Assembly (NCBI GenBank): GCA_016182185.1 | Contig: JACOXU010000001.1 | Coordinates: 207,251-271,250 of the forward strand | Length of the DNA: 64,000 nt | Source of the DNA: Candidatus Levyibacteriota bacterium | GTDB taxonomy: Bacteria > Patescibacteriota > Microgenomatia > Levybacterales > UBA12049 | Direction: 5' to 3' | Part shown: one piece after another, positions 1 through 64,000 of the stretch | Layout of the letters: every line of letters begins with the position of its first letter | Position numbering within the stretch: the first letter of the stretch is position 1 | Translations under genes and position numbers: made by a program | The notes under the pieces: model-generated | What the model was told of the DNA's origin: nothing | What the model saw: the letters and a program-made list of their open reading frames with translations, nothing else | Databases searched by the model: none

Positions 1-264
1 AAGAATTTCAGGAAGCACAACCTGTTCTTTAAGAGAATGCCAGAGGATATTTACCTTAACAATTTTAAATTTTAAATTTTTCCCCGCTTCGCCCAAGCTT
101 CGCGGGGCGAGAATTTTTAATTCAACCTGATCGTAATCTTGACGTCTTACAAACAGAATATACTGATTTTTTCGATCTACTTGCGCAAGCTGATCAATCA
201 AGTTACGGGTATATCTCCCAACTCCTGTCTGATTCCATAACCTGCAATCAATTCCAATTTTCAT
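1..264 (-). CDS. GT4-family glycosyltransferase, N-terminal part only; the gene runs off the left edge of the window
   Basis: Not in the ORF track because there is no stop in the window. A minus-strand ATG at 262-264 overlaps the stop of 261..1160 (ATGA). The open frame to position 1 reads MKIGIDCRLWNQTGVGRYTRNLIDQLAQVDRKNQYILFV..., the typical GT4 N-terminus. Confidence 0.55.
   Translation of the reverse strand, partial: MKIGIDCRLWNQTGVGRYTRNLIDQLAQVDRKNQYILFVRRQDYDQVELKILAPRSLGEAGKNLKFKIVKVNILWHSLKEQVVLPEIL
61..81. repeat. heptanucleotide tandem repeat (AATTTTA)x3 inside a coding sequence
   Basis: aatttta aatttta aattttt, encoding KNLKFKI on the minus strand. Confidence 0.7.
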
Positions 265-1160
265 TTTTGAATAGATGAAAGAGAAATCTTACGCTTAAAC
301 TCAATTACTGATAATATGAAGGAATTAAGAATTTTTGGGTATTTTTTTTCATAATGTTTTTTGTAAAAGATCCTCATAGCATTAAAACGAGCATTTGTCG
401 CTATCATTTTTGTTTGTAAATTTGCTGTAGATTTTCTTTCTGAATGTTTTTTGATTCCGCCTGAAATTCCTTTATGATGAAGTACGAAAACTTTTGGAAC
501 AAAATAAACTTTCCAGCCCTTCTCTTTAAGCCGGAAACAAAAATCTATGTCTTCTCCGTAAAAAAAATAATCCTCATCCCACCAATTTATCTCATCTCCT
601 GCTCTTCTTCTTACCATCATAAAAGCACCCACTACTGAATCGACTTCATGCTCAGTTGACAAATCAAGCCAGCCCATTGTATAGCCTGAAAATATTTTAC
701 TTTTTGGAAAAACTCTAGAAAAACCTGAAAAATAACAGAAAGAATTCCAGGGTGTAGGAAATCCCCGATGAGCCCCGTCATCAAGTTTCCCCGTTGGAAG
801 TCTTACAAAGCAGGTCGATACTCCTACATCGCTATGTTTATTCATAAAAGAAATCATATATGGCAATGTATTTTCATCAACCTGTGTATCTGGATTTAGA
901 AACAGAAGAAATTTTCCCTGTGATTTTCTGATGCCTATATTGTTTGCTTTTGAAAAACCAAAATTATCACTATTTTTTATTATGAAAACTTGTGGGAAAT
1001 GTTTTTTAACCTCTTCAACAGTACCGTCGGATGAAGCATTATCAACTAAAATAATCTCATAATTTCTTCTAGAAAGATCTGAGTTATAAATCGCGTCTAT
1101 GCATTGTTTTATGAATCCTTTTGTATTAAATGAGACAATAATTATTGAAAGCTCAATCAT
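261..1160 (-). CDS. GT2-family glycosyltransferase
   Basis: The N-terminus SIIIVSFNT...ILVDNASSDGT is typical of GT2, followed by the NPD/DxD region. It overlaps the next gene by 4 nt. Confidence 0.8.
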   Translation of the reverse strand: MIELSIIIVSFNTKGFIKQCIDAIYNSDLSRRNYEIILVDNASSDGTVEEVKKHFPQVFIIKNSDNFGFSKANNIGIRKSQGKFLLFLNPDTQVDENTLPYMISFMNKHSDVGVSTCFVRLPTGKLDDGAHRGFPTPWNSFCYFSGFSRVFPKSKIFSGYTMGWLDLSTEHEVDSVVGAFMMVRRRAGDEINWWDEDYFFYGEDIDFCFRLKEKGWKVYFVPKVFVLHHKGISGGIKKHSERKSTANLQTKMIATNARFNAMRIFYKKHYEKKYPKILNSFILSVIEFKRKISLSSIQK

Positions 1161-2353
1161 GATCTTAAAACGATCCTATATACATCTTCCAATTTCTTTG
1201 TAACCTTCTTCCAATCATATTTTTGCTCTACCAATTGCCTTGCATTTGCTGAAATCTTTTTATAAAACTCCTCATCGGTTACTAGTTTAATAATTTGATC
1301 TGCTATCTCTTTCTCGTTTTCTGAAACAATAATTTCTTTATCTTCAACTGCTCCGAGAGGGCCGGCTCCTAATCGGGTTGTAACAACAGGAACTCCTGAT
1401 GCCATTGCTTCAAGAATCTTATAACTTGACCCTCCACCGACTCTGATTGGCGAAAGTAAAAGGTCTACTTTCTGAAAGATAAGCGAAGTATCATCTGGAG
1501 CATTTTCATCGAAAAAAATATCACTACCGGCAAGTTTTTTTATATCATTATGAATATTTTTTCCAACTACCCACAATTTAACTTTTAATTTCTCACTTTT
1601 TACTTTTAACTTTATTGATGGCCAAATTTTCTCGATAATCCATTTTATTGCATCTCTATTCTGCACCCATTTAAAATCACCAATATATAGAATTGTTTTT
1701 TCGCCGCCAGTTTCTAAATCTGAACTTATGACTTTGAATTTTTCAAGGTCGACTCCGTTCGGGACAACTGCCGTATTCTCATTTTTTGGCTGCATCAAAT
1801 TTTTCTCTTCTTCTGAAACTGCTACGAGAAAATTTGCTTTTTCCCAGAATTTTTCTTCCTGTCTTTTTAACTTCAAGATATCAATATTTAATAATGGACG
1901 GGCGAAAAAAGGTGCCGTATTCGAATATCTTTTATAAACCATATATTCAATATTATGCTCAACTAAAACAATTGGAAGAGATGTCTCTGGTAAATTCTGC
2001 ATAATATAAGAGGTTTCAATATGGATCAAGTCAAATTTCTCTTTTTCTAAAAGATTTTTGATTTTTTGTTTCATTTCAGGACTGGTGTGTCCGGCAATAA
2101 GAAATGATGAAAAAGAAAAACCGGTCTTAAGAATATTATCTAATGACCACTGTTTTTTTCTTTTGACAGTAATCACTTCTTTACAAACATTAGTAACCTC
2201 ATCAACATCTTTTTGAGTCTGATAATCTCTTTTCTCACAAACTAGAGTAATTTGATGCGTTTTACTTAAATTTTTCAAAATATTATATAAGCGAATATGC
2301 CCGCCAGAAAAAAGAGGGTAGGGTAAGAACGACGAGACCATTAAAATCTTCAT
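1157..2353 (-). CDS. GT4-family glycosyltransferase
   Basis: Two-Rossmann GT4 layout with the C-terminal E(A)M..G.PVV motif (EAMASGVPVVTTRLGAGP). Confidence 0.8.
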   Translation of the reverse strand: MKILMVSSFLPYPLFSGGHIRLYNILKNLSKTHQITLVCEKRDYQTQKDVDEVTNVCKEVITVKRKKQWSLDNILKTGFSFSSFLIAGHTSPEMKQKIKNLLEKEKFDLIHIETSYIMQNLPETSLPIVLVEHNIEYMVYKRYSNTAPFFARPLLNIDILKLKRQEEKFWEKANFLVAVSEEEKNLMQPKNENTAVVPNGVDLEKFKVISSDLETGGEKTILYIGDFKWVQNRDAIKWIIEKIWPSIKLKVKSEKLKVKLWVVGKNIHNDIKKLAGSDIFFDENAPDDTSLIFQKVDLLLSPIRVGGGSSYKILEAMASGVPVVTTRLGAGPLGAVEDKEIIVSENEKEIADQIIKLVTDEEFYKKISANARQLVEQKYDWKKVTKKLEDVYRIVLRS

Positions 2354-3795
2354 GGTTTTTGGTGAAGATCAACCAAAATATAATCAGGAGTTGAAGAAAT
2401 AATTTTATAAGTTTCACCAATATCATCTCCTGTCGGATTAACAATCACCAAATAATCTGCACCCATCATTATCATTTTGGGTAATTCTTCCTGAAAGCTT
2501 GCCCAGCCCTGCCTATTTATTTGATATAAAAATGCTGTGTCTCCATCATATGGAGCAATAACTTTTGCGTCTTTAGGAATCAAATTATTTACTGCTTGAC
2601 CCGCCCGTACTATGGCCGGATTATTTATGTTATAGTAATCTCGAATACTCTGCCAGGAAAAAGCAAACATAAATAGCGCACAAACAGCAAATAGCAATAA
2701 ACCAAAACCACGTCTTATAAGTGAACTGTTTAATTTAAGTAAATATTCACTACCTAAAGCCAAGAAGATAACCAAGCTTGGAACTATAGGAATTTGATAA
2801 TAATCATGATGGACATTTCCACCGGCGACTACAAAAATATAAATAAGAGATGAGATAACAAAAGAAAGAAAAAATAAGTGCTCCTTGATTTTAACTTTTT
2901 GAATCAAGCCCAAAACAAAAAGCGGAAGCCCCCAAGATCCCAAAATTAAAGTCGCTATTCTTTTTTCAAATATCCAGGAGAAAAATGCACCTTTAAATCG
3001 TATATTATTCATATTAAACAGCCAATCGCTTCGAGGAATTCCTTCAGGATTTTGGATAATCCATATTCGCCAAAGAATAAGGGGGTAGATAGAAAAAATT
3101 AAAAAAATCCATAATTGCCATTTTTTTAAAAAACTCAATCCTAACTTGTTCAAAGCAAGAACAAATAACGGTAGTGTAAAAAATAAGGCAAATGGTTTAA
3201 GAAGAAATGACGAAGCAATCAGAATTAAAGATAGAATGAATCTGAAATCATAAATCTTAAGTTTTGAATTTTTTTCAAGCCATAAATCAAAAAAATAAAT
3301 ACCTCCAAGCAAAGTCATAAGCATCATGGCGTCAGGTAAAATCGTTCTGCTATAATAAACGTTATAAGGAAGAAATATAAAAAAGAACAAAGCCAACATT
3401 CCTGCAAAATTATTCTGGTATTTTTTAACAATTAGATACATGAAGATGGCAGCAAGAAGAGAAGAGAAAATCGAAACCAGTCTTCCCCATTGTTCAATCG
3501 TAAATATTCCAAATATTTTAAAAAGTCCGGCTTGAATAATATTATATATCGGAAATTCCACAAAACGATACCCATTTGGATTGTCATAGAAATTTGAGGG
3601 CACATTTGAGAGATCGTCAAACCGAGGATATAAAACATAAAAGCCGTATTTAATAAAATTCCTAGAAACTGCCGATGTATCTGCTTGTCGCCAGCTATGC
3701 CAGTCTGCTACTGGATTATTGAATTTATAAAGCCTTAATACAAAACCTAGTATTAAAATAGAAATTAAAAGAAAAAATTCTTTTTTTTTCATCAA
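2350..3795 (-). CDS. polytopic membrane glycosyltransferase, GT-C fold (ArnT/PMT, GT39/GT83-like)
   Basis: About 12 predicted TM helices. The first loop carries VADWHSWRQADT, which resembles the ArnT/PMT_2 aspartate-containing loop. Confidence 0.55.
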   Translation of the reverse strand: MMKKKEFFLLISILILGFVLRLYKFNNPVADWHSWRQADTSAVSRNFIKYGFYVLYPRFDDLSNVPSNFYDNPNGYRFVEFPIYNIIQAGLFKIFGIFTIEQWGRLVSIFSSLLAAIFMYLIVKKYQNNFAGMLALFFFIFLPYNVYYSRTILPDAMMLMTLLGGIYFFDLWLEKNSKLKIYDFRFILSLILIASSFLLKPFALFFTLPLFVLALNKLGLSFLKKWQLWIFLIFSIYPLILWRIWIIQNPEGIPRSDWLFNMNNIRFKGAFFSWIFEKRIATLILGSWGLPLFVLGLIQKVKIKEHLFFLSFVISSLIYIFVVAGGNVHHDYYQIPIVPSLVIFLALGSEYLLKLNSSLIRRGFGLLLFAVCALFMFAFSWQSIRDYYNINNPAIVRAGQAVNNLIPKDAKVIAPYDGDTAFLYQINRQGWASFQEELPKMIMMGADYLVIVNPTGDDIGETYKIISSTPDYILVDLHQKP

Positions 3796-3798
3796 ATA

Positions 3799-6700
3799 TC
3801 AAATATTTAGGGGAGTAATTTCTCCATGAATATTCTTAATCCACTCAACCAAAGTTCCATCCTCATTGAATTTGAACACTCTCCCGTTTGGTTCACTCAT
3901 TATAGCAAAAGCTTCATCCACTGATTTAACGATATTGACTTTTATATTTTTACCGGGAAAAAGAAGCCATGTCGCATCCTCAAGACCTACCGGGAAAATC
4001 CATGCCTCGCCTTCCCTAATTGGAACATCAACGAAATATAAAGTTGATGCCTCAGAAACACCATAATGAACGTAAGCATTTTCTAAAGATGAAAGAAAAC
4101 TTTTAGATTTTTGACCTGCTCTTTGCCAATCTGTTTGGGTTTTTTGAAACTGAAAAAGCTGAATTGATAAAAAAAATACTGCTATCAGTGCAAAAATAGA
4201 AATTGTAATTTGCCTATCTTTGACATAAAGAAACTTAAAAAGCTTTACGAGAAAGAATGAAAGAAGAAGAGATATTCCAAAAGAAGCAAGATAGCTGTAC
4301 CTTGATGTGATATTTCCTAGTCCTAAAAACGGTAGGAGAGACACAATAAAAAATAGAATCGAAAAGACTAAAATTCTTTTTTCATTATTTTCCAATTTTC
4401 TAAATAAAAATCTATAGAATAAAATAAATATTAATAATAAAACCACCAATGATAAAAAGGCAAATGGAATGTTCGCCCGTAAAAGTGACCTGAGTCCTTC
4501 ATAAAAATTTAAAGAAAAAGAACCAAAAAGTATAAGAATAAAATAGCCAAGAATATTACCAAAAAAATTAAAAGGAAGTTTCAGAAGATTATAATTATAG
4601 TCTCCGCTTAGCCAGTGACTTTGAGATAATAATCTTAGCAGTAAATAAGGTAAGACTGGGAAAAATAATATATAGTAATAAAGTTTGCTAAATAGAGATT
4701 TCAATATAATTTTTTCTTGAAAAATCAAATCATAAAAAATAATCAGTAGTGGAGCAATAATTCCCAGTTCATGAAAAAGTAAGCTTATTATGATTGATAC
4801 AAAAGAAAGAGCAAAATAAAATATTTTTTTATTTTCGCGCCACAAGATAAAAGACAATAACGCCAGGAGAATAAACGTAATGTTAAATAAATGTCCTGTT
4901 GCGGCAATCCAGAAAATCGCCTCTGTATATCCGCTTAGGAAAATAAAAATCAATACAGAAATTACAGACAAATAATAATTTTTAAATATTTTTCTTGAAA
5001 TCAGAAAAAAGAGAACTATATTCAGAAGATGAAGAACGATTGAGACAAAGTGGTAAACTGTTTGATTCAACCAGAATAAATTTTGCATTAAATAAAAATA
5101 AAGTTTTGTTCCCGGCCGGTAAAAAAACCCATTGGCTTTTGTGAAGTACTCGCTAACTATTGCAAGGGGGTTACAATTTATACAATCAGTAGCCCAACGA
5201 AGCCAAGTAAAATCGTCGCCAACGAAATAGTAACTTATGGCACCAGCAAATAATATAAATCCTGCCGTAATTAAGTAGATAATAAATGCATAGGGAGAAA
5301 TTAATATTTTTTTAATCTCACTAACTGTATCTATTTCTTTTTTCTTATAAAGAGCCAGACCTCCGATTACTATTCCCATAATAAGCCAATAAGAAAAAGC
5401 AATTTTTGATGCTTCAAAAACATCGATAAATATTGCGTTTAGGAAAAGACCTACGGATCCTGCAATAAATCCAATGATAAAACTTTTTACCGGCCCTGAA
5501 TCAATATCAGGCAAAATCTTCTTAATATATATGGCGGAAATTAGAAAAATTATTAGAAAAGAAAGAAAACCGATAAGACCTGATTCGCCCAATATTCTTA
5601 AATAATCATTGTCAACTGCAAGACTTACCGATCCATAGCCGCTTCCCAAAAAAATATTTCTTTTGAAGGCCGCAAGCGTATTGGGCCACTCGCCTTGAAA
5701 CCTAGTTGTAAATGAAATGTCATAAGCTTTGGCATTTTTTATAACGAAATCTCCGAAGACGGCTCGAATCTCTCCTTGTCCTTCAGGTTCTTTGTCGCTG
5801 GCTTTTTCAAAGAAATAAAGATGGGAAGTTTTGATAACGGGCGAGAGTGAAAGATTTATATAGCTTGATCCTTGAGGCAAGCTTTCTCCGTTTGGTTTAT
5901 TTGACTCTACAATTAATTGTGATTGAGGAGGTATTTTTTCAAATGGGAATACCGCAGAAGAAGTAGTATTTTTCTTATCAACTTCTGAGATTGGCTGAAT
6001 AAAAACGATTCTGTTTTTAAAATATGATGCTGGTACTTCCTTAATATGTCCGATTGCCTGTCCTGTTTTCGTATCTACCAAAACATCTACTTTCCCAACT
6101 GTGCTTGCAAAACGAGACAACAGGCTTGGAGCCAGTATTACAAAGACAGATATGAGTAAGATCAAAGAGATAACTGCCAGTTTTTTCTTTTGTATAATTA
6201 TTACGATTAAAAGGGCGATTAAAAGTACAGCAAAAGATATACGTGAAACAGTCATAAACATCAAAATAAAACCTAATGAAGCAGAAATTAGAAAAAAGAT
6301 CCGAAGCAATATTTTTTTAAAACCAAATATAGCGCTTACAATAATTGGAACAACAAGTACCAAATATGCTGCGAGATCATAGTGACCAGCAAAAGTTGAG
6401 GGCACACGACCAAGCGTTGAAATCCGAAGAGGAATACCCTTGGCGAACTCTTCATTTCCAGTAAGAAAGGCTGGAAACCCGAGGAATTTTTGACCAAACC
6501 CATATAATGAAGCAAGAATAACTATAATTCCTAGAAGTATAGGAATATATTGTAATAATTTCTTATCTCGCATTCCTGAAAAAGCTACAAAGAATAAAAA
6601 CATATACTCAATTCTCCGAATAAAGCTTAAAATTGCAACATTTGAAAAAACATTTGATAGTGTGGGAAAAAGAATTAATACTCCATGAAGAGTTGATATC

Positions 6701-6945: not shown

Positions 6946-6946
6946 A

Positions 6947-7822: not shown

Positions 7823-7823
7823 C

Positions 7824-9499: not shown

Positions 9500-9500
9500 A

Positions 9501-10040: not shown

Positions 10041-10065
10041 ATATTAATTCTAAGTCAACTCAAGG

Positions 10066-10941: not shown

Positions 10942-10942
10942 T

Positions 10943-11164: not shown

Positions 11165-11166
11165 TT

Positions 11167-12093: not shown

Positions 12094-12102
12094 ATGCCTA
12101 TT

Positions 12103-14166: not shown

Positions 14167-14172
14167 TCTAGC

Positions 14173-15384: not shown

Positions 15385-15456
15385 AAGATTTTCCTAAAAG
15401 TTTTTATTTTGGAGTATATCATAGTGAAATTTCAATAGTAAAGAAGAATTTTCAAG

Positions 15457-16470: not shown

Positions 16471-16514
16471 ATTTTATTATTTAAAGATTATTATGAATAA
16501 TTCCCAAAAAAATA

Positions 16515-57809: not shown

Positions 57810-58333
57810 AAATTTTTCCTTCGAATAGATATAGACATTTCTATATCTTTCTTAAGATAGATTTTGGTTGAAAAAGATTTCTCCGGCCTCCAATAAACTT
57901 TTTCCGGAATTCCTTCTCTCAACATCAATAACGCTTCTATATGCTTTAGGCTCGCCTCTTTTAATAATGTCCGTTTTGAATCAATGCTCTCTTTATTAGC
58001 TTTCGAATTGTCAAGATTTGATCGAATATTATAAAAATATTCGTCAGATTTTTTTAGCGCTTTTTGCCCTAATAAAAACTGGTCATATTCAAAAAGCGTT
58101 TTTGCTTCAACTAGATATTTATCTGCTTGTTTAAGATTATAATTAAACTGCCCAAATTTACCAAAATACCAGTATTTTAAGATTTTATCCTTAATAAGAT
58201 TGATTTTGTAAAAAGGGCTTCCTGGCATAAATGATGGGTATGGAAGTACATAAGAAGATTGAGCAAAAATTGGACTATAGAAAAAAAATAAAAACATGAT
58301 AGAAAGGAGAAAAGATCGAAGAATCCACCTCAT
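57806..58333 (-). CDS. small secreted protein, paralog B of 28304..28846 (LPYPxxxPxxPxYK motif)
   Basis: Signal peptide (MRWILRSFLLSIMFLFFFYSPIFAQS), then YVLPYPSFMPGSPFYKINLIKDKIL. Its start codon sits inside the (TTTTGAA)x4 repeat. Confidence 0.55.
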   Translation of the reverse strand: MRWILRSFLLSIMFLFFFYSPIFAQSSYVLPYPSFMPGSPFYKINLIKDKILKYWYFGKFGQFNYNLKQADKYLVEAKTLFEYDQFLLGQKALKKSDEYFYNIRSNLDNSKANKESIDSKRTLLKEASLKHIEALLMLREGIPEKVYWRPEKSFSTKIYLKKDIEMSISIRRKNL

Positions 58334-59325
58334 TTTGAATTTTGAATTTTGAATTTTGAATTATTTTTGCGCCATTCCCATGCGGTTTTAACAATTGTTT
58401 CAAGATCAGAATATTTTGGCTCAAACCCCAATTCCTTTTTAATCTTTGTCGGATCCGCAATTAAAACATCTACATCCCCTGATCTTCTTGAGGAGTTTTT
58501 TACCTTAAAATCAATTCCTGATATTTTTTTTACCATTTCAAGTACTTCTTTATTTGAATATCCTTTTCCGGTTCCAACGTTGTAATAGTAATCATCTGGA
58601 TTTTCTTTTAGTTTTTGAAGCGTTAAAAGATGAGATTCAACTAAATCAATCACATGAATATAATCCCTAATACATGTTCCATCAGGGGTATCATAATCAT
58701 TTCCAAAAAGACTAAATTCGGAGTTTCCTAAGGTTGCTTTAATTGCTAGAGGAATTATATGAGTTTCAGGATCATGATCTTCTCCCATATTTCCATCAAG
58801 AGAGGCGCCAGCTGCATTAAAATAGCGAAGACTTGCAAAGCTCAATCCAAAGATTTTATTATACCAAGCAAGAATTTTCTCAACCATTAATTTACTTTCT
58901 CCATAAGGGTTAGTGGGAAGAGTCTGGTGATCCTCAGATATAGGAGTTTTAATTGGATTCCCATAAACTCCGGCCGTAGAAGAAAAAACTAAAGATTTAA
59001 TATTGTGCCTTACAGCTTGCTCGATCAAATTAAGAGATCCAAGAGTATTGTTTTGAAAATACAATTTGGGATTTTCCATAGATTCTGCCATAGATATATA
59101 TCCTGCGAAATGGATCACGGCATCGAACTTATCGGTGGAAAATGTATTTTCTAGTATTTCAGGATTTAAAAGGTCTCCTTGAACAAACTTTGCTTTCGTA
59201 TCAATAGCTTCTCTTTGACCGCGCTCCAAACTATCAAGCACAACCACATCATCTCCATTTTTTAGAAGTCGCTTAACCATAAAGCTTCCAATATAACCTG
59301 CCCCACCCGTAACCAAGATTTTCAT
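58330..59325 (-). CDS. galE: UDP-glucose 4-epimerase
   Basis: MKILVTGGAGYIGSFMVKRL...AVIHFAGY...FSSTAGVYG...YGESK matches GalE throughout. The C-terminus NNSKFKIQNSK is encoded by a heptamer repeat. Confidence 0.8.
   Translation of the reverse strand: MKILVTGGAGYIGSFMVKRLLKNGDDVVVLDSLERGQREAIDTKAKFVQGDLLNPEILENTFSTDKFDAVIHFAGYISMAESMENPKLYFQNNTLGSLNLIEQAVRHNIKSLVFSSTAGVYGNPIKTPISEDHQTLPTNPYGESKLMVEKILAWYNKIFGLSFASLRYFNAAGASLDGNMGEDHDPETHIIPLAIKATLGNSEFSLFGNDYDTPDGTCIRDYIHVIDLVESHLLTLQKLKENPDDYYYNVGTGKGYSNKEVLEMVKKISGIDFKVKNSSRRSGDVDVLIADPTKIKKELGFEPKYSDLETIVKTAWEWRKNNSKFKIQNSK
58333..58362. repeat. heptanucleotide tandem repeat (TTTTGAA)x4 spanning the galE stop codon and the next gene's start
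   Basis: Four exact copies at 58333-58360. It encodes the GalE C-terminus KFKIQNSK-stop and overlaps the ATG of 57806..58333. Confidence 0.85.
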
Positions 59326-60104
59326 AATTTTAAGTACTTAATATATGATACAGGAAATCGAAGAGATGAGAAAAGAGAGAAGACAAATCCTGGCCACAAA
59401 TCCATAAAACCTTTATGCCTTAAATAAGTAAAAAGAAACCAATAAACAGGTTTAAAAGTTAAGGAGGCGCCTGCAAAAATTATTTTGTAAAAAATATTTT
59501 TATTTTTTAGCTTTTCTTTAATTTGCGATGCAATAAGATCAGTATATCTATCCCACTTTAAAAGATAATCGTTAAAATCTTTATATGGATAATGTAATAA
59601 CGGGTTTTTAAGATATGTGACTTCTCCTTCAACTTCTGCTTGTTCATGAACATCCTTCTGAGGAAGCCTTCCTTTTCCCCTTTTATACAGTCTTAAAGTA
59701 TAGTCAGGATACTGCCCGCCCTTCATAAGAAATCTACCCAAAAACCAATTTTTTCTCGGAATCCAATATCCATTAACATGACTGACTATTGATGACTGAC
59801 TATTGATGACTGACTTAATCTCTTTTCTAAGTCCTTTGGAGACCACTTCATCTGCATCAAGTTGCAAGATCCAATCAGAAGTTGCCATATCTATAGCCAT
59901 TTGCTTATTGATATGAAAAATAGGTTTATTTGTTGTGATTTTAATTTTGGCTCCGAATTGCTTCGCCTTATCAACTGTCTTGTCACTTGAAGCTCCATCA
60001 ACAACAACAATCTCATCTGCCAAACCATCTACGCTTTCAAGACAAGCTGGAAGATTCTTTTCCTCATTGTAAGTTGCCAAAACCACAGACAAAGTTGCCT
60101 TCAT
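59322..60104 (-). CDS. GT2-family glycosyltransferase; contains a 14-bp tandem repeat
   Basis: LSVVLATYNEEKNL...IVVVDGASSDKT...LDADEVV. The segment KSVINSQSSIVSHVNG is encoded by (ATGACTGACTATTG)x2.7 at 59779-59818. Confidence 0.75.
   Translation of the reverse strand: MKATLSVVLATYNEEKNLPACLESVDGLADEIVVVDGASSDKTVDKAKQFGAKIKITTNKPIFHINKQMAIDMATSDWILQLDADEVVSKGLRKEIKSVINSQSSIVSHVNGYWIPRKNWFLGRFLMKGGQYPDYTLRLYKRGKGRLPQKDVHEQAEVEGEVTYLKNPLLHYPYKDFNDYLLKWDRYTDLIASQIKEKLKNKNIFYKIIFAGASLTFKPVYWFLFTYLRHKGFMDLWPGFVFSLFSSLRFPVSYIKYLKL
59779..59818. repeat. 14-nt tandem repeat (ATGACTGACTATTG)x2.7 inside a GT2 coding sequence
   Basis: atgactgactattg atgactgactattg atgactgact. Confidence 0.85.
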
Positions 60105-60119: not shown

Positions 60120-61763
60120 CTAAAATTTCGTTTTTATAAACTTGAATAAGTAAAAAGTTAATATACCAAATAAAACAAACGTTGAAGCAATATTGGAAAA
60201 CAATCTTAATTTAGTTTCTCTGTAAACAATTTCAATATCGTGTTTTCCTTCCGGGACGTAAAAGGTTATTAAGCCTCGGAAACGTTGATCTTGAAACTCA
60301 ACTATTGCAGGTTTACTGTCCAACAAAACCGTCCAGCCTGGAAAATATAATGTATTTTCAAGAATTCTGCTTGTTTTCTGGGCGTTAATTTTATAAATAC
60401 GTTTCGTCGTTGACCTTTGAACGAGCTCTATTGATGCTTTTCCGTCAATCAGCTGTATTTGCTCTAAAGCTCTCTTTTCCATAAACCTCACAGACCAGAT
60501 TGGGGAACTTTCACCGGTGTCAGTTGTGCTGTTATAAATTCCAGTGTAAAAGTTTTCAGGTTTGTAGAGATAATCTATCGGCCTCATATAATCTTTGCTC
60601 AAAAACAAAAGTAAAATAATCGCAAAGACTGTAAACCAGATTCGAGATTTACGAAAAACCTGCTCAAAAACGACTGCTCCTAATACAGACGTTGTGAAAA
60701 CCGGAATTGCCAAGAATCGCCAGGGAAATTGAAAATTTTGAAGGAGAATAAATTTCTGCCAAATAAAACTAGAGATAGGAAGCATTAAAAAAATCGCAAT
60801 TAATGTATAGACGATTAATCCTAAAGAGAATACCAGGTTTTTTCTATCTTTTTTTATATAAAATTTAGTAAGTAATATAATAGACAAAATAAAACTAGCC
60901 CAATGTAGAATTCCAAGTTGGACCGTAAATTGTCCGGATATACCATAGCTCCACGGTCCATATAGTAAATCTCTGAAATTTACAAACCTTCCGATATAAC
61001 CTCCGGCCGTCACAATATTCCTTAATGTATATTTTCCCTCCAAAAGTCCCGGTATCCAGAAGAATGCAGAAAGGCCGAATCCGATGAGCATTAAAGAAGT
61101 AAGATTTATGATATAAGATTTACGATTTTTAGATAAATTAAGAAGAAAAAATCCATAAAAAATAATAAATGGCATAAGCATAAGGCTAATGGCATTATGA
61201 GAAAGAATTAGGAACGCCAAGGAAAAACCTCCTAGAAAAATGTTGTTCATATTTTTCTTTTTATAAATACTATAAATAAAAAATAAAACAAGAGGTATAA
61301 AAGCAAAAGCGAGATGCTCTCCTATATCTCCCCTTACATAAACTTCAACAAATCTATAAGGCGCATGTGTATATAAAACTGCTCCAAAAAGAGCAGAAAA
61401 CTTGTTAAGAAAAGATGATAACCATAAATACATAAATATTATTGATAATATTGTGCCTAATCCGAAAACTATTTTCACTGAATCAACCAATGAAAATCCC
61501 AAGAAATGAAAAAATGAGGCTGTATAAGATGGAAAAGGATACAGAAACTCAAGGATCGGATGGCCATATCCCCAATTAAGGTTCCCCGCCCAACGAGGAA
61601 TAATATTTCCCTCGGAAAGATTTTGGTAAAAATTTGCAATTCTTGCCACATGATCCTGTCCATCATGAGTAATCGGAAGTCCTGAATGGAAAAGAGATAT
61701 CGCTGGAATAATACCGATAAAAATTAAAACTAAATATAAAAAATGTTTTTTATATTTTTTCAT
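60120..61763 (-). CDS. polytopic membrane protein, uncharacterised GT-C-like family (paralog of 55063..56697)
   Basis: PITHDGQDHVARIANF...NIIPRWAGNLNWGYGHPILEFLYPFPSY. The C-terminus has YFPGWTV...VPEGKHDIE and a TM anchor. Confidence 0.45.
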   Translation of the reverse strand: MKKYKKHFLYLVLIFIGIIPAISLFHSGLPITHDGQDHVARIANFYQNLSEGNIIPRWAGNLNWGYGHPILEFLYPFPSYTASFFHFLGFSLVDSVKIVFGLGTILSIIFMYLWLSSFLNKFSALFGAVLYTHAPYRFVEVYVRGDIGEHLAFAFIPLVLFFIYSIYKKKNMNNIFLGGFSLAFLILSHNAISLMLMPFIIFYGFFLLNLSKNRKSYIINLTSLMLIGFGLSAFFWIPGLLEGKYTLRNIVTAGGYIGRFVNFRDLLYGPWSYGISGQFTVQLGILHWASFILSIILLTKFYIKKDRKNLVFSLGLIVYTLIAIFLMLPISSFIWQKFILLQNFQFPWRFLAIPVFTTSVLGAVVFEQVFRKSRIWFTVFAIILLLFLSKDYMRPIDYLYKPENFYTGIYNSTTDTGESSPIWSVRFMEKRALEQIQLIDGKASIELVQRSTTKRIYKINAQKTSRILENTLYFPGWTVLLDSKPAIVEFQDQRFRGLITFYVPEGKHDIEIVYRETKLRLFSNIASTFVLFGILTFYLFKFIKTKF

Positions 61764-63324
61764 CTTCTATTCGTTTTTGAATAATAAAACCCGATGGCAA
61801 TGTTTGAGTCCATTCAATTTTACCTGATTTAATTACCGTCTCCATCCATCCTTTGTAAGACCATGGTTTTGAAGAATCAACCTCTATCCATAAGTAAAAC
61901 GTGTCTTTTTTTTCTTTGCTAGGAACATAATTATATTTTCTCTGACCATACCACCATATAACATAATCATAGGGATAAGTATAAACCGGAGGGCTAAAAA
62001 CCAAAAGGTTAAATGGTTTTCCTTTTGAATCTTGATAAATGAAATCGAGTGCGTCTATTTTCCCTTTAATTTTTGCCGTTCCTCCGTAATCTTTATAATC
62101 ATAGAAAAATGTTACTGAACCTTTAATAGAGGCGTTGATAACCATTACTATAGTCAAGACAATTCCGACAAGCTGAACAATTTTAAGCTTATATTTAAAA
62201 GAAGAATATAAAATATAGACAAAAAACAGGATGTAAACAAAATAAAGATGTGTTAGATAATAAACATATATTGCTCCTTTAATGAAAGATAAAATAAAAA
62301 AACTGATTATTGGAAGTAGAATAATAAAAAAAAGAAAATTTTTTAACTTTCCTCTTGGTTCCCTTAGGAAAAAGTAAATAAATACAAGGAAAAATAATAT
62401 TAAAAAGAAAGTATTTTGTACAGGAAAAACTCGTTGAAAAGTATCAAGAAAATTGTAAATAAATAATCCAAAATGATCTTTTAGATTTAGCTCAATAAAT
62501 TTAGCCGTTACGATATTTTTTTCTCTAATAAAGATGTACGTATATATTCCATTAATTGTTGTAAAACCATGTCTAATCTCAAAGAAAATCATAGGAGCAA
62601 AAGCCAAGATGAAACCAGAGAATAAAGTGATAAACTTGATAATTCTTTCTTTTCTGATAATAAATATATAGAAAAGGATAACAGTCAAACTAAGAGGTGT
62701 GGCGACTGCAAGCTGAAAATTATAGGAAAAACCTGCAAAGAATGAAGTAAGAAATAGATTTCTCAATTTTATTTGTTTTTCCTCAAGACTCTTAAGTAAA
62801 AAATAGAAAGACAGCAGGATAAAAATAGTTGAGCCATGGGTATTCCAGACAAAACGAGAATAAGATATTAAAGGAGGAGATATGGCAATAAGAAGCGACG
62901 TTACGATCCCTGCCCAACGTCCTAATAATTTTTTTCCAAGAAGATAACCGAGAAAAATTGTGATTGCTCCATAAAGAAATGTCAGTAAAACCCCACCGTA
63001 TGGATTACCATTTAAGACAGCGAAAAAAGTCGCCAGAAAAAAATAATGTAAAGGGCCGTGGAATACTCCTTGAAATCCAGCAGATCCTGCTCCAATCTCA
63101 GAACCAATCAGCGTCAGCTTCTTATCTACCACGATATTTTTAACTGCGAGATAATCCCTGCCCTGATCAAAGCCAAATAAATAGTTTCCGCTTAAGACTT
63201 CCGCTGCTCGCGGAAATACGGATAAAAAAATAATTAATGTAATTATTAAATATTCGATAATTTTCAAGGTTTTTTTAGAAAAAATTTTCTCTCTGTTATT
63301 TTTCAAAAAAGTTTTTGTTTTCAT
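61750..63324 (-). CDS. polytopic membrane glycosyltransferase, GT-C fold (ArnT/PMT, GT39-like) with a C-terminal soluble domain
   Basis: The first loop has YLFGFDQGRDYLAV (a DxxRD/DE-type motif). There are about 11 TM helices, and the soluble C-terminal domain is rich in Y and W. Confidence 0.5.
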   Translation of the reverse strand: MKTKTFLKNNREKIFSKKTLKIIEYLIITLIIFLSVFPRAAEVLSGNYLFGFDQGRDYLAVKNIVVDKKLTLIGSEIGAGSAGFQGVFHGPLHYFFLATFFAVLNGNPYGGVLLTFLYGAITIFLGYLLGKKLLGRWAGIVTSLLIAISPPLISYSRFVWNTHGSTIFILLSFYFLLKSLEEKQIKLRNLFLTSFFAGFSYNFQLAVATPLSLTVILFYIFIIRKERIIKFITLFSGFILAFAPMIFFEIRHGFTTINGIYTYIFIREKNIVTAKFIELNLKDHFGLFIYNFLDTFQRVFPVQNTFFLILFFLVFIYFFLREPRGKLKNFLFFIILLPIISFFILSFIKGAIYVYYLTHLYFVYILFFVYILYSSFKYKLKIVQLVGIVLTIVMVINASIKGSVTFFYDYKDYGGTAKIKGKIDALDFIYQDSKGKPFNLLVFSPPVYTYPYDYVIWWYGQRKYNYVPSKEKKDTFYLWIEVDSSKPWSYKGWMETVIKSGKIEWTQTLPSGFIIQKRIEDEKI

Positions 63325-64000
63325 GTTTCTGTTATTACAACAACTACATTCCCGTCAAGATTTTTAAATTCTGTTACGGATTGTATATCTTTAGGAAAAT
63401 CTGTGGGATTACCAACATAAAGAGTTTTTTCTTTTTTGACTTCACTATTCCAATTGATAGGCCGGAATTCGTACTTTCCAATTTTATGTGTTGCCGCAAA
63501 ACCCCCCGAAAGTGTTCCCCCCTGCTTAAGATATTTTTCCGGATCATATTTAGTATGAAAAAGAAAAAACATATATGATTGATAAAGATTATCCTTATTC
63601 GATAAAACTATATGGTTATAATCATTTTGTCTTGAAAATACATATGGGATAGCCTGAGTTAAACCGTATTGAAAAGATTTGGATTGTTCCTTTGGAAAAT
63701 TATTGAAATAATTTTTGAAAAGAGTAAATAAACTAAATAAAGTAACGAGTAAAAAAAGAGAGAGTATCCACAGCTTAAGCTTTCGTAATTTGTAAAATAA
63801 ATAACCCAAACCAAGCGCAGTAAATATTTGCCAGACTGGAACGAAATTGTACGATCTCATCGCATGAGGGGCTTGTGTGGCAATTGAAGCAGGAACTGCC
63901 GATAATAAAAACCATAGTAAGATTAATTTTTTATAATTAGCATCAACCTCTTTTCGTAGAAGAATAAACCCTGTCCCAAAAATTATAAAAGGGGCCTGCC
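63321..64000 (-). CDS. C-terminal part of a membrane protein whose 5' end lies beyond the window (probably another GT-C-like protein)
   Basis: The track ORF starts at M (63860), but the frame stays open upstream to position 64000 (...FGTGFILLRKEVDANYKKLILLWFLLSAVPASIATQAPHAMRSYNF), encoding TM helices. There is an ATGA overlap with 61750..63324. Confidence 0.5.
   Translation of the reverse strand, partial: QAPFIIFGTGFILLRKEVDANYKKLILLWFLLSAVPASIATQAPHAMRSYNFVPVWQIFTALGLGYLFYKLRKLKLWILSLFLLVTLFSLFTLFKNYFNNFPKEQSKSFQYGLTQAIPYVFSRQNDYNHIVLSNKDNLYQSYMFFLFHTKYDPEKYLKQGGTLSGGFAATHKIGKYEFRPINWNSEVKKEKTLYVGNPTDFPKDIQSVTEFKNLDGNVVVVITET

What the first reader, a model, noticed from the sequence alone, without database searches (positions are those of the whole stretch)
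1..64000. The whole window is one gap-free surface-glycan locus with extreme glycosyltransferase density
About 58 consecutive genes all point to glycan assembly. There are at least 18 GT2 or GT4 enzymes and at least 13 large polytopic membrane proteins of GT-C type. There is a Wzx flippase, an O-antigen-ligase-like domain, a polyprenyl-phosphate GT2 and an acetyltransferase. There are four methyltransferases, three DegT enzymes and enzymes for CDP-, GDP-, dTDP- and UDP-sugars. No housekeeping gene interrupts the run. Genes overlap by 1-4 nt, implying operons of at least 24 kb (1..24025) and at least 33 kb (30596..>64000). Such a high ratio of GT-C membrane enzymes to soluble GTs is unusual. 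It suggests many extracytoplasmic, lipid-linked-donor glycosylation steps, for example an S-layer, pilin or protein glycan or a complex wall polymer, rather than a classic O-antigen cluster.
Basis: partly seen in the sequence, partly recalled or inferred. Interest (0 to 1): 0.7.

Follow-up and report, generated by a model that had tools for sequence, protein, structure and literature searches.

The report
Giant surface-glycan gene region in Levybacteria
The whole 64-kb window, from an uncultivated ultra-small groundwater bacterium (Candidatus Levybacteria), is packed with sugar-chain-building genes, about 40% of it coding for membrane enzymes that add sugars outside the cell, so this tiny genome invests heavily in its surface coat; every part belongs to a known enzyme family.

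Summary
The window carries 57 tightly packed genes (about 98.6% coding, no RNA genes). At least 48 of them are recognisable glycan-biosynthesis genes.

Corrected counts:
- 10 GT2 and 6 GT4 enzymes, one of which is a half-size GT4 protein, plus one GT4 fragment at the window edge.
- 13 well-supported and 1 tentative GT-C membrane glycosyltransferases.
- 3 ArnC/GtrB/DPM1-type polyprenyl-phosphate sugar synthases.
- 1 Wzx flippase, 4 methyltransferases and 1 acetyltransferase.
- Enzymes for CDP-, dTDP- and UDP-sugars, and more weakly for GDP-sugars.

The source is a Candidatus Levybacteria MAG (candidate phyla radiation, Microgenomates) on a 617-kb contig. The region is not an assembly chimera.

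It is not one uniform locus. Genes g1-g8 (261-10040), and in a subset g10-g11, form a core conserved across Microgenomates. This core includes a 1048-aa fusion of a WaaL-like domain with a PMT/STT3-like GT-C domain. In relatives the core continues past the window to a phosphoglycosyl transferase, DUF4012 and RecO. The other roughly 50 kb are variable modules; g23-g43 are missing from the closest relative. The region extends past both window ends, to at least about 71.5 kb.

Every part belongs to a known family. The scale, the GT-C density and the fusion enzyme are unusual. The glycan product and its acceptor remain unknown.

The parts
1..260 (-). N-terminus of a 384-aa GT4 that runs off the window start
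   Evidence: Translation. Full gene in the 100%-identical contig L001.
261..1160 (-). g1, GT2 (conserved core)
   Evidence: PF00535, 1e-28. Found in 76 of 82 related loci.
1157..2353 (-). g2, GT4 (core)
   Evidence: PF13692 and PF00534. Found in 67 of 82 related loci.
2350..3795 (-). g3, GT-C of PMT_2 type (core)
   Evidence: PF13231, 36 bits against a cut-off of 26.1. Found in 72 of 82 related loci.
3799..6945 (-). g4, 1048-aa fusion. The N-terminal half is WaaL/Wzy_C-like. The C-terminal half (about residues 540-1048) is a PMT/STT3-like GT-C. It is the anchor of the conserved core.
6947..7822 (-). g5, GT2 (core)
   Evidence: PF00535. Found in 77 of 82 related loci.
7824..8375 (-). g6, hexapeptide O-acetyltransferase, WcaF-like (core)
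   Evidence: PF00132. NF007797, 102 bits. Found in 76 of 82 related loci at a median 66% identity.
8372..9499 (-). g7, GT4 (core)
   Evidence: PF00534, 2e-36. Found in 77 of 82 related loci.
9501..10040 (-). g8, protein consisting only of a GT4 N-terminal domain, kept as a separate gene in relatives (core)
   Evidence: PF13439. Found in 62 of 82 related loci as a 180-188-aa gene.
10066..10941 (-). g9, EamA/DMT transporter. Inferred candidate flippase for polyprenyl-P-sugar.
   Evidence: PF00892, 1e-38. Present in only 5 of 82 related loci.
11167..12093 (-). g10, ArnC/GtrB-type polyprenyl-phosphate glycosyltransferase with two C-terminal transmembrane helices
   Evidence: PDB ArnC 9hwj, 5e-47 over the full length; GtrB 5ekp, 3e-29. 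Transmembrane prediction.
12103..14166 (-). g11, GT-C, a short AftD/DUF3367-like paralogue of g29
   Evidence: hhalign of its family against g29: 99.1%, E 5e-19, 529 columns. Invariant D34 after TM1. No Pfam or PDB sequence hit.
14173..15384 (-). g12, RfbH-like PLP enzyme (CDP-4-keto-6-deoxyglucose 3-dehydrase type)
   Evidence: NF011936, 407 bits against a cut-off of 423.
15457..16470 (-). g13, SDR resembling an NDP-hexose 4,6-dehydratase
   Evidence: TIGR01181, 177 bits, below cut-off.
16515..18179 (-). g14, GT-C related to the C-terminal half of g4
   Evidence: hhalign to the g4 family: 97%, E 1e-10. blastp 4e-12.
18176..18928 (-). g15, SAM methyltransferase
   Evidence: PF13489 and PF08241.
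18925..19866 (-). g16, GT2 with C-terminal transmembrane helices
   Evidence: PF00535. PDB hits cover only the N-terminal part.
19879..20871 (-). g17, GT2
   Evidence: PF00535, 48.5 bits.
20896..21756 (-). g18, dTDP-4-dehydrorhamnose reductase (RmlD)
   Evidence: TIGR01214, 234.6 bits against a cut-off of 224.
21763..22212 (-). g19, RmlC-like cupin epimerase
   Evidence: PF00908.
22209..23240 (-). g20, SDR epimerase or dehydratase
   Evidence: PF01370.
23234..24025 (-). g21, glucose-1-phosphate cytidylyltransferase-like
   Evidence: TIGR02623, 236 bits against a cut-off of 300.
24076..25290 (+). g22, second RfbH-like enzyme
   Evidence: NF011936, 345 bits.
25287..26750 (-). g23, GT-C of PMT_2 type. 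First gene of the block that is absent from the closest relative.
   Evidence: PF13231, 56 bits. Synteny.
26751..27470 (-). g24, PAPS-reductase-family protein, role unclear
   Evidence: PF01507, 4e-43. Below the NCBIfam cut-offs.
27557..28252 (+). g25, DPM1-like GT2, a candidate polyprenyl-P-sugar synthase without transmembrane helices
   Evidence: PDB 5mlz, dolichol-P-mannose synthase, 1e-17 across the whole catalytic domain.
28304..28846 (+). g26, DUF5667 protein with a signal peptide
   Evidence: PF18915. Sequence.
28803..30599 (+). g27, polytopic membrane protein, tentatively a GT-C. The start is uncertain (28803 or 28896).
   Evidence: blastp to g54, 2e-5. hhalign to the g49/g54 family gives only 46%, E 2e-4. 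No Pfam hit. Candidate starts.
30596..30961 (-). g28, small membrane protein of unknown function
   Evidence: No significant family hit.
30951..34505 (-). g29, 1184-aa AftD-like GT-C with an internal DUF5667 domain
   Evidence: PF11847, 37.9 bits against a cut-off of 26; PF18915 at residues 685-743. NCBI names it a DUF3367 protein.
34492..35178 (-). g30, methyltransferase
   Evidence: PF13489.
35175..36719 (-). g31, alkaline-phosphatase-superfamily phosphodiesterase, role unclear
   Evidence: PF01663, 3e-32.
36765..37811 (-). g32, GT2
   Evidence: PF00535.
37808..40417 (-). g33, GT-C fused to a CBM32 (F5/8 type C) sugar-binding domain
40387..41139 (-). g34, methyltransferase
   Evidence: PF08241.
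41123..41752 (-). g35, methyltransferase
   Evidence: PF08241.
41749..42936 (-). g36, GT4
   Evidence: PF00534.
42920..44026 (-). g37, DegT-family sugar aminotransferase
   Evidence: PF01041, 2.5e-108.
44031..44963 (-). g38, GDP-L-fucose-synthase-like SDR
   Evidence: NF047922, 256 bits against a cut-off of 500.
44997..46208 (-). g39, secreted phosphoesterase of the PLC/acid-phosphatase family, role unclear
   Evidence: PF04185, 1e-68. N-terminal transmembrane segment.
46238..47221 (-). g40, SDR resembling a dehydratase
   Evidence: PF01370. TIGR01181, 127 bits.
47140..48156 (-). g41, GT2
   Evidence: PF00535.
48146..49270 (-). g42, GT4
   Evidence: PF00534.
49270..50157 (-). g43, weakly HAD-like protein of unknown role
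   Evidence: Only weak hits.
50238..50990 (-). g44, DPM1/GtrB-like GT2, a candidate polyprenyl-P-sugar synthase
   Evidence: PDB 5mlz 2e-12; GtrB 4e-11. Called as 250 aa in independent contigs.
50983..51537 (-). g45, RmlC-like epimerase
   Evidence: PF00908.
51582..52901 (-). g46, Wzx-type flippase
   Evidence: PF13440 and PF01943.
52903..54033 (-). g47, GT-C resembling PIG-V/Mannosyl_trans2, not a Wzy polymerase. The true start is near 54033.
   Evidence: 18 of 37 family members hit PF04188 (best 7e-15); the protein itself scores 20.9 bits. Large family. Candidate starts.
53999..55066 (-). g48, GT4
   Evidence: PF00534.
55063..56697 (-). g49, GT-C of YfhO/PTPS_related type
   Evidence: PF10131, 57.5 bits; PF09586.
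56679..57809 (-). g50, GT-C of the MptA_B family (GT87-like), widely conserved in Levybacteria
   Evidence: PF26314 precomputed hit. TIGR03459, 6e-7.
57806..58333 (-). g51, DUF5667 protein with a signal peptide
   Evidence: PF18915. Sequence.
58330..59325 (-). g52, UDP-glucose 4-epimerase (GalE)
   Evidence: TIGR01179, 412 bits against a cut-off of 262.
59322..60104 (-). g53, GT2
   Evidence: PF00535.
60120..61763 (-). g54, GT-C of PTPS_related/PMT_2 type
   Evidence: PF10131, 44.7 bits. 31% identical to g49.
61750..63324 (-). g55, GT-C of PMT_2 type
   Evidence: PF13231, 41.6 bits.
63321..64000 (-). g56, C-terminal 226 residues of a 556-aa PMT_2-type GT-C that runs off the window end
   Evidence: Full ORF in the 100%-identical contig L003. 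PF13231, 30.7 bits.

Best explanation
What it is. The window is part of a surface-glycan biosynthesis region of at least about 71.5 kb in a Candidatus Levybacteria (CPR, Microgenomates) genome. It is built from modules.

- Module A (about 1-14166, g1-g11) is an envelope-glycan core. Genes g1-g8 are conserved across Microgenomates; g10 and g11 recur in a subset of relatives. In relatives the core continues beyond the window start to a sugar-1-P nucleotidyltransferase, an initiating phosphoglycosyl transferase (Bac_transf), DUF4012 and then RecO.
- The remaining roughly 50 kb are variable accessory modules.
- g12-g22 supply CDP- and dTDP-deoxyhexose enzymes plus glycosyltransferases.
- g23-g43 form a block absent from the closest relative.
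- g44-g51 form a Wzx-containing block that is shared with the closest relative.
- g52 onwards continues past the window end.

Proposed mechanism (inferred).
1. Locus-encoded enzymes make NDP-sugars, including deoxy, amino and epimerised forms.
2. An oligosaccharide is assembled on polyprenyl diphosphate at the cytoplasmic face by the GT2 and GT4 enzymes. It is methylated and acetylated, and flipped by Wzx (g46).
3. In parallel, three ArnC/GtrB/DPM1-type GT2 enzymes (g10, g25, g44) load single sugars onto polyprenyl phosphate.
4. After flipping, 13-14 GT-C enzymes add these sugars outside the membrane to the growing glycan or to its final acceptor.
5. The conserved fusion g4 probably transfers or polymerises the polyprenyl-PP-linked glycan through its WaaL-like half. 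Its PMT/STT3-like half probably adds a further sugar.

Shown versus inferred. Gene identities, folds, synteny and contiguity are shown by tool results. The pathway order, the sugars, the flippase role of g9 and the acceptor are inferred.
For: Source organism and contig: exact protein look-up.

Family assignments.

GT-C fold:
- Transitive profile links: g11 family to g29, 99.1%; g14 to g4, 97%; g33 family to the g4 C-half, 97.6%.
- g47 family matches PIG-V Mannosyl_trans2 in 18 of 37 members.
- g50 is MptA_B family.
- Invariant acidic residues follow the first helix in the g4 C-half (DD577-578) and g11 (D34); in g33 (E53) and g47 (D55) the residue is conserved in at least 90% of sequences.

Lipid-sugar donor synthases: g10 matches ArnC at 5e-47 over the full length. 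g25 and g44 match dolichol-P-mannose synthase and GtrB.

Conserved core:
- g1-g8 occur in 62-82 of 82 related loci.
- The PGT is present in 47, and the NTP-transferase in 48, of the 49 loci that have a full downstream flank.
- The core ends at RecO in L005.
- The same order begins in this genome, as seen in L001.

Variable part: g12 onwards are absent from the flanks of relatives. The closest relative lacks g23-g43 and g47.

Contiguity: independent assemblies from 5 sequencing runs are 100% identical over 38.9 kb of the window, including both module junctions.
Against: - No initiating phosphoglycosyl transferase, Wzy polymerase, chain-length regulator, LCP ligase or GtrA-type flippase was found inside the window by Pfam.
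- The PGT is inferred only from relatives, because the source contig could not be fetched.
- The N-terminal half of the g4 model has low confidence (pLDDT mostly below 65). Its Wzy_C hit is below the Pfam cut-off.
- g27 is only weakly linked to GT-C.
- Sugar pathways are incomplete in the window. There is no RmlA, no GDP-mannose dehydratase above cut-off, and no E3 reductase partner for the RfbH-like enzymes.
- Several genes (g24, g31, g39, g43) do not fit the model.
- No acceptor gene (S-layer protein, pilin or sortase substrate) lies in the window.
- The operon structure is unproven.
Confidence: 0.6

Rival explanations
1. One pathway, one product. All of the roughly 57 genes cooperate to build a single, very complex glycan or wall polymer, and they are transcribed as two giant operons.
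For: Packing is uninterrupted and genes overlap by 1-4 nt. Only two strand switches interrupt the run. GC content is uniform at about 33%. No unrelated housekeeping gene is present.
Against: Synteny shows separable modules with different conservation. g23-g43 and g47 are absent from a relative that otherwise keeps the same order at 50-82% identity. There are duplicated functions: 2 RfbH-like enzymes, 2 RmlC-like enzymes, 3 lipid-sugar synthases and several paralogous GT-C enzymes. There are at least five transcription units by strand.
Confidence: 0.15
2. Mainly protein glycosylation. The PMT_2, STT3-like and WaaL/PglL-like enzymes glycosylate S-layer proteins or type IV pilins directly, in the manner of actinobacterial Pmt or the PglL/PilO O-oligosaccharyltransferases. 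On this view the region is a protein-glycosylation island rather than a wall-polysaccharide locus.
For: The best structural matches of g4 and g33 are protein O-mannosyltransferases and oligosaccharyltransferases. Wzy_C-type domains include the PglL and PilO O-oligosaccharyltransferases (established knowledge). CPR cells carry S-layers and abundant pili (PMC7906910). Pilin O-glycosylation is predicted but unexplored in Saccharibacteria (bioRxiv 10.1101/2024.11.25.624915).
Confidence: 0.25
3. Artefact. The window is an assembly or binning chimera that stitches together glycan genes from several organisms.
For: MAG contigs from complex groundwater communities can be chimeric. One close g4 homologue is labelled as Pacearchaeota, and many relatives are labelled 'uncultured Gammaproteobacteria', which shows that labelling errors exist in such data.
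Against: Independent Logan assemblies of runs SRR12113383, -384, -420, -424 and -430 are 100% identical to the window over 38.9 kb. They bridge 16751-37470 and 45636-58112, and both window ends. Composition is uniform. Gene order is shared with other Levybacteria.
Confidence: 0.02

Closest known systems
Mycobacterial arabinogalactan/lipoarabinomannan machinery (AftA-D, EmbA-C, MptA/B, PimE, with polyprenyl-phosphate sugar donors)
   Same: Many GT-C enzymes clustered with cytoplasmic glycosyltransferases build a wall glycan outside the membrane from polyprenyl-P-monosaccharides. g29 passes the GT-C_AftD Pfam model. g11 is its paralogue. g50 is MptA_B family.
   Different: No decaprenyl-P-arabinose pathway (UbiA, DprE1/2) and no Emb-type proteins were found. 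The organism is a CPR bacterium with a genome likely near 1 Mb. The GT-C genes are more numerous per kb: 14 in 64 kb. There is also a Wzx flippase and a WaaL-like fusion.
Three-component glycosylation systems (GtrB/GtrA/GtrC for O-antigen; CsbB/GtcA/YfhO for teichoic acids; ArnC/ArnEF/ArnT for lipid A)
   Same: A GT2 with C-terminal transmembrane helices loads a sugar onto undecaprenyl phosphate, and a GT-C transfers it outside the cell. g10 matches ArnC and GtrB over its full length. g49 and g54 are YfhO/PTPS_related. g9 is an EamA/DMT protein lying next to g10; ArnE and ArnF belong to the same transporter superfamily (from my own knowledge, not tested here).
   Different: No GtrA/GtcA-family flippase was detected by Pfam. 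There are three donor synthases for about 14 GT-C enzymes, rather than one for one. The system is embedded in a large de novo glycan assembly region instead of being a small add-on module.
Wzx/Wzy-dependent O-antigen or capsule loci, and WaaL/PglL ligases
   Different: No separate Wzy or Wzz was found. The candidate Wzy (g47) proved to be a PIG-V-like GT-C. The ligase-like domain is fused to a PMT/STT3-like GT-C. CPR bacteria appear to lack an outer membrane (PMC7906910), so presumably have no lipid A acceptor.
Eukaryotic and archaeal lipid-linked-oligosaccharide pathway (cytosolic Alg GT4/GT2 enzymes, DPM1, luminal ALG3/9/12/6/8 GT-C enzymes, STT3/AglB)
   Same: The logic is the same: cytoplasmic GT-B and GT-A steps, flipping, multiple GT-C extensions from polyprenyl-P-sugars, and a GT-C transferase. 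ALG12, ALG9, ALG3, STT3B and AglB are among the top structural matches of g33 and g4. g25 and g44 match archaeal dolichol-P-mannose synthase best.
   Different: There is no sequence-level orthology. No STT3-type WWDxG motif was examined. The gene content is bacterial (Wzx, WaaL-like, Bac_transf).

Membership tests
GT-C glycosyltransferase superfamily (applied to the 14 polytopic proteins) | Large polytopic membrane protein with at least 8 transmembrane helices | tested here: met
   Hydropathy predicts 8-22 hydrophobic segments in g3, g4, g11, g14, g23, g27, g29, g33, g47, g49, g50, g54 and g55. AF2 models show helical bundles.
GT-C glycosyltransferase superfamily | GT-C fold, or significant match to a curated GT-C family | tested here: met
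GT-C glycosyltransferase superfamily | Conserved acidic residue in the first extracytoplasmic loop | tested here: met
   Family alignments show invariant DD577-578 in the g4 C-half and invariant D34 in g11. E53 in g33 and D55 in g47 are conserved in at least 90% of sequences. Each follows the first helix. hhalign aligns g33 E53 with g4 D578. This was not checked for the other nine proteins.
GT-C glycosyltransferase superfamily | Use of polyprenyl-phosphate-linked sugar donors | not testable with these tools
   Support is indirect only. Three ArnC/GtrB/DPM1-type synthases are encoded in the same region.
Wzx/Wzy-dependent O-antigen or capsule locus | Initiating phosphoglycosyl transferase (WbaP/WecA/PglC type) | tested here: not met
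   None was found in the window by Pfam. A Bac_transf gene lies about 7-8 kb beyond g1 in 47 of the 49 relatives that have a full flank. It is expected in this genome, but that stretch could not be fetched.
Wzx/Wzy-dependent O-antigen or capsule locus | Wzx flippase | tested here: met
   g46 matches PF13440 and PF01943.
Wzx/Wzy-dependent O-antigen or capsule locus | Wzy polymerase and Wzz/PCP chain-length regulator | tested here: not met
   No Wzz/PCP hit was found. The positional candidate g47 is a PIG-V-like GT-C. Only the N-terminal half of g4 is Wzy_C-like, at 20 bits against a cut-off of 31.7.
O-antigen ligase / O-oligosaccharyltransferase (WaaL, PglL; Pfam Wzy_C), applied to the g4 N-terminal half | Wzy_C domain above the Pfam threshold | tested here: inconclusive
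   g4 itself scores 19-20 bits against a cut-off of 31.7. Ten of the 120 listed homologues carry PF04932 in the precomputed column. NCBI names the protein 'O-antigen ligase family protein'.
O-antigen ligase / O-oligosaccharyltransferase (g4 N-terminal half) | WaaL-like fold | tested here: met
O-antigen ligase / O-oligosaccharyltransferase (g4 N-terminal half) | Catalytic His and Arg residues of WaaL | not tested
   The family motif reads AVDNNYLRILGESGLLG with invariant D445. From memory, the canonical motif has His at that position. No alignment to a WaaL sequence was made.
ArnC/GtrB-type polyprenyl-phosphate glycosyltransferases (g10) | GT2 catalytic domain plus juxtamembrane region and two C-terminal transmembrane helices, matching over the full length | tested here: met
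   g10 residues 2-287 match ArnC residues 10-293 at 5e-47. GtrB matches at 3e-29 over residues 2-297. Transmembrane helices lie at about 235 and 265.
Three-component Gtr/GtcA/YfhO glycosylation system | Small GtrA/GtcA-family flippase | tested here: not met
   No PF04138 hit was found among any of the ORFs. g9 (EamA) and g28 are only candidates.
Mycobacterial arabinan/mannan GT-C set | AftD-type GT-C domain | tested here: met
   g29 matches PF11847 at 37.9 bits against a cut-off of 26.
Mycobacterial arabinan/mannan GT-C set | Decaprenyl-P-arabinose synthesis genes (UbiA-type PRPP transferase, DprE1/2) and Emb proteins | tested here: not met
   No such Pfam hits were found in any ORF of the window.
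CDP-3,6-dideoxyhexose pathway (RfbF, RfbG, RfbH, RfbI) | Cytidylyltransferase, 4,6-dehydratase, E1 dehydrase and E3 reductase | tested here: inconclusive
   g21 scores 236 bits against 300. g12 scores 407 and g22 scores 345, both against 423. All are just below the equivalog cut-offs. The dehydratase cannot be assigned among the SDR proteins. No E3-type reductase was found.
dTDP-L-rhamnose pathway (RmlA-D) | All four enzymes present | tested here: not met
   Only RmlD (g18) passes its cut-off. The RmlC-like proteins g19 and g45 and the RmlB-like g13 are far below theirs. No RmlA is present in the window.

The most novel reading that the evidence does not exclude
Microgenomates may share a previously undescribed envelope-glycan pathway. 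Its core would be a conserved fusion enzyme (g4) that joins a WaaL-like polyprenyl-PP-glycan transferase or polymerase to a PMT/STT3-like GT-C.

In this Levybacteria genome the core would be coupled to an exceptionally large, fast-evolving set of a dozen or more extracytoplasmic GT-C enzymes. Some of these carry or pair with lectin (CBM32) or DUF5667 domains.

Together they would form a bacterial counterpart of the eukaryotic ER-lumen ALG pathway. The resulting strain-specific surface glycan would govern attachment to host cells or evasion of phages in these episymbionts.
Probability: 0.3. Interest if true: 0.75.

Novelty: new variant of a known kind. Interest (0 to 1): 0.5.

Why it matters
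CPR/Patescibacteria have very small genomes and are thought to live attached to other cells, yet almost nothing is known about their surface chemistry. The library held one paper containing both 'Microgenomates' and 'glycosyltransferase', and none mentioning DUF5667 or the Wzy_C plus PMT_2 pair. A recent Saccharibacteria preprint calls their glycosylation 'unexplored'.

A region of at least 71.5 kb is more than 11% of the 617-kb contig. About 40% of the window encodes GT-C enzymes. Surface glycans are therefore a major investment for this organism. They are likely central to host recognition, phage defence or envelope integrity.

The conserved core, and especially the WaaL-GT-C fusion found in at least 573 species representatives, gives a concrete and testable entry point into CPR envelope biogenesis. 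It is also a possible source of new glycoengineering enzymes. If the region only makes an ordinary wall polysaccharide, the finding is still a useful catalogue entry but not a surprise.

Tried and rejected
1. A genome-contig scan with g29 found no relative.
2. The source contig could not be fetched through the look-up of encoding contigs. The true boundaries therefore remain unknown, and the flanks come from Logan contigs only.
3. I first read L003 and L004 as strain variants upstream of g55. This was rejected: they are identical, and the 179-aa 'g56' is an ORF-listing artefact of a 556-aa gene that runs off the window.
4. I expected g47, next to Wzx, to be the Wzy polymerase. This was rejected: its family matches PIG-V-type GT-C.
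5. g8 (half a GT4) looked like a pseudogene fragment. This was rejected: it is a conserved separate gene in 62 of 82 relatives.
6. PDB sequence searches gave nothing for g4, g11, g47 and g50. Only fold comparison worked.
7. Pfam gave nothing for g11, g14 and g27, even at E 0.1 or through family members.
8. hhalign of g27 against four GT-C family profiles gave only a weak match to the YfhO-like group, so g27 stays tentative.
10. The sigma-70 promoter and terminator scan was at chance level, and Rfam found nothing.
11. Literature searches found no description of such loci in CPR bacteria.

Full report
**Observation**

The window (GC about 33%) is tiled by 56 ORFs of at least 100 aa, plus a gene fragment at 1-260. 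All but four ORFs are on the minus strand. Positive intergenic gaps sum to about 870 nt. Many neighbours overlap by 4 nt, and others by 1-31 nt. There are no tRNA genes and no Rfam matches.

Three ORF starts given by the mechanical list are too long: g27, g44 and g47. The '179-aa' g56 is the C-terminus of a 556-aa gene that runs off the window.

**What the genes are** (Pfam and NCBIfam scans)

- GT2, ten genes: g1, g5, g10, g16, g17, g25, g32, g41, g44, g53.
- GT4: five full genes (g2, g7, g36, g42, g48), one N-domain-only protein (g8) and the edge fragment.
- Four SAM methyltransferases (g15, g30, g34, g35).
- A WcaF-like acetyltransferase (g6) and a Wzx flippase (g46).
- Three DegT-family enzymes. 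g12 and g22 are RfbH-like (407 and 345 bits against a cut-off of 423). g37 is an aminotransferase.
- A glucose-1-P cytidylyltransferase-like enzyme (g21).
- RmlD (g18) and GalE (g52), both above their cut-offs.
- Two RmlC-like cupins (g19, g45).
- A GDP-fucose-synthase-like SDR (g38, below cut-off) and three further SDR proteins.

Genes without an evident glycan role: g24 (PAPS-reductase family), g31 (alkaline-phosphatase-type phosphodiesterase), g39 (secreted PLC/acid-phosphatase family), g43 (weakly HAD-like), g28 (small membrane protein), g9 (EamA) and two DUF5667 proteins (g26, g51).

**Are the polytopic proteins GT-C enzymes?**

Seven pass curated Pfam thresholds:
- g3, g23, g55 and the full-length g56 match PMT_2.
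- g29 matches GT-C_AftD.
- g49 and g54 match PTPS_related/YfhO.

Profile comparisons tie in the rest:
- The g33 family matches the g4 C-half at 97.6%.
- g14 matches the g4 C-half at 97%.
- The g11 family matches g29 at 99.1% over 529 columns.
- g50 carries the MptA_B family domain.
- The family of g47 has more than 10,000 cluster representatives. It hits PIG-V Mannosyl_trans2 in 18 of 37 sampled members. g47 is therefore a GT-C and not the Wzy polymerase its position suggested.

Only g27 remains tentative.

An acidic residue follows the first helix in the four families I aligned. It is invariant in g4-C and g11, and conserved in at least 90% of sequences in g33 and g47.

The total is 13 supported and 1 tentative GT-C enzymes. 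They occupy about 25 kb, roughly 40% of the window.

**Donor supply**

g10 matches ArnC over its whole length (5e-47) and GtrB (3e-29). It has the two C-terminal helices typical of these enzymes. g25 and g44 are its paralogues. They match archaeal dolichol-phosphate-mannose synthase best. The region thus encodes three candidate polyprenyl-phosphate sugar synthases to feed the GT-C enzymes.

**Source and integrity**

Exact protein look-up places the window on a 617,327-bp contig of a 'Candidatus Levybacteria bacterium' MAG, for example HYT08_01275 = g11. The contig itself could not be retrieved.

Independent Logan assemblies from five sequencing runs are 100% identical to the window over 38.9 kb. 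They cover 1-1415, 16751-37470, 45636-58112 and 59671-64000. This rules out a chimera.

Two of these contigs extend the region.
- Beyond position 1 lie a GT4, a methyltransferase, a 112-aa gene on the other strand, a GT4 and an NTP-transferase.
- Beyond 64000 lie the rest of g56, an SDR protein and a further weak PMT_2-like protein.

The region is therefore at least about 71.5 kb, and neither boundary was reached.

**One locus or several?**

g4 has more than 1595 homologues at about 55% identity. It occurs in at least 573 GTDB species representatives of Levy-, Gottesman-, Roizman- and Woesebacteria.

In 82 related loci:
- g1-g8 are present in 62-82 loci.
- g10 and g11 are present in about 31-36 loci.
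- g9 is present in 5 loci.
- g12 onwards are essentially absent from the 10-kb flanks.

Downstream of g1, relatives carry two GT4 genes. Of the 49 loci with a full downstream flank, 48 have an NTP-transferase, 47 have a Bac_transf phosphoglycosyl transferase and 42 have DUF4012. RecO follows in L005.

The closest relative shows 50-82% identity. It keeps g11-g1, and g51-g48 followed by g46-g44. It lacks g47. It joins the g44-side GT4 directly to g22 and g21, so g23-g43 are missing.

The window is therefore a conserved core plus variable modules, not a single uniform locus.

Density of large polytopic proteins is 2.2 per 10 kb across the whole window. Around the core in relatives the median is 1.3 and the maximum 2.2. 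GT-C richness is thus a lineage trait, and here it is sustained over an unusually long stretch.

**Mechanism**

The best-supported model runs as follows.
1. Cytoplasmic assembly of a polyprenyl-PP-linked oligosaccharide from locus-made NDP-sugars.
2. Flipping by Wzx.
3. Multiple extracytoplasmic additions by GT-C enzymes, using polyprenyl-P-sugars from g10, g25 and g44.
4. Transfer or polymerisation by the WaaL-like half of g4.

The gene identities are shown by tool results. The order of steps, the sugars and the acceptor are inferred. CPR cells have S-layers and pili and appear to lack an outer membrane (PMC7906910). Plausible acceptors are therefore surface proteins, peptidoglycan or a membrane lipid.

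**Comparison with known systems**

The nearest analogues are:
- the mycobacterial arabinogalactan/LAM GT-C set;
- the three-component Gtr/Arn/YfhO systems;
- Wzx-dependent O-antigen loci;
- by logic, the eukaryotic ALG/OST pathway.

Defining features of each are only partly met (see the membership table). The window has no PGT, Wzy, Wzz or GtrA, no arabinose-donor genes, and incomplete rhamnose and dideoxyhexose pathways.

**Novelty and score**

All parts belong to known families. What is unusual is the scale in a tiny genome, the GT-C density, the conserved WaaL-GT-C fusion, the GT-C-CBM32 fusion and the pairing of DUF5667 with GT-C genes. I found no description of these in the searchable literature.

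I rate it a new variant of a known kind, with interest 0.5.

Noticed in passing
window 28304-28846 (+), 57806-58333 (-), and g29 residues 685-743 (within 30951-34505, -); also L088 532-1089: DUF5667 (PF18915) occurs as small proteins with a signal peptide immediately upstream of, and overlapping, two GT-C genes (g27 and g50). It is also fused inside the AftD-like GT-C g29. The same pairing is seen in the closest relative. DUF5667 may be an extracytoplasmic accessory domain of GT-C enzymes. The literature library has no mention of it.
   Followed up: partly
window 9501-10040 (-): g8 encodes only the N-terminal Rossmann half of a GT4. It is kept as a separate 180-188-aa gene next to the full GT4 g7 in 62 of 82 related loci. 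This suggests a two-subunit glycosyltransferase of the Alg13/Alg14 kind rather than a pseudogene.
   Followed up: partly
L087 7007-7375: In the closest relative, a 122-aa gene with bAvd/23S_rRNA_IVP domains is inserted between the g8 and g7 homologues. This is the accessory-protein type found in diversity-generating retroelements. It is absent from the window.
   Followed up: no
window 26751-27470 (-): A PAPS-reductase/CysD-family protein (PF01507, 4e-43) sits in a two-gene unit with the PMT_2-type GT-C g23. It has no sulfate-assimilation partners nearby. Its role in a glycan region is unexplained; sulfation or an ATP-pyrophosphatase-type activation are possibilities.
   Followed up: no
window 35175-36719 (-) and 44997-46208 (-): Two phosphoesterases lie inside the variable block: an alkaline-phosphatase-superfamily phosphodiesterase (g31) and a secreted PLC/acid-phosphatase-family protein (g39). 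They could add or remove phospho-substituents on the glycan, or scavenge host lipids or phosphate.
   Followed up: no
window 3799-6945 (-), residues about 440-460: The Wzy_C-like motif of the g4 family reads AVDNNYLRILGESGLLG with an invariant Asp445. From memory, canonical O-antigen ligases have a catalytic His at that position. This may indicate altered chemistry.
   Followed up: no
window 63321-63860: The mechanical ORF list reports a 179-aa ORF starting at an internal ATG. The reading frame is in fact open to the window end and belongs to a 556-aa PMT_2-type protein, as seen in contig L003.
   Followed up: yes
window 24031-24067 and 27488-27550: Paired, divergently oriented sigma-70-like promoter matches sit in the two short divergent intergenic regions, g21/g22 and g24/g25. 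Overall promoter-like counts are at chance level, so this is only suggestive.
   Followed up: partly
(related loci L009, L010, L013 and others): Many public relatives of this Microgenomates-specific gene are titled 'uncultured Gammaproteobacteria bacterium', and one is titled 'Pacearchaeota archaeon'. These look like placeholder names or mis-binned records rather than true taxonomy.
   Followed up: no
L005 1-3095 and L087 1-1974: Relatives carry a protein of 1116-1170 aa, a g29 homologue (25% identity over 1138 aa, 8e-81), directly upstream of the g11 homologue. A giant AftD-like GT-C is therefore a recurrent neighbour of the conserved core.
   Followed up: partly
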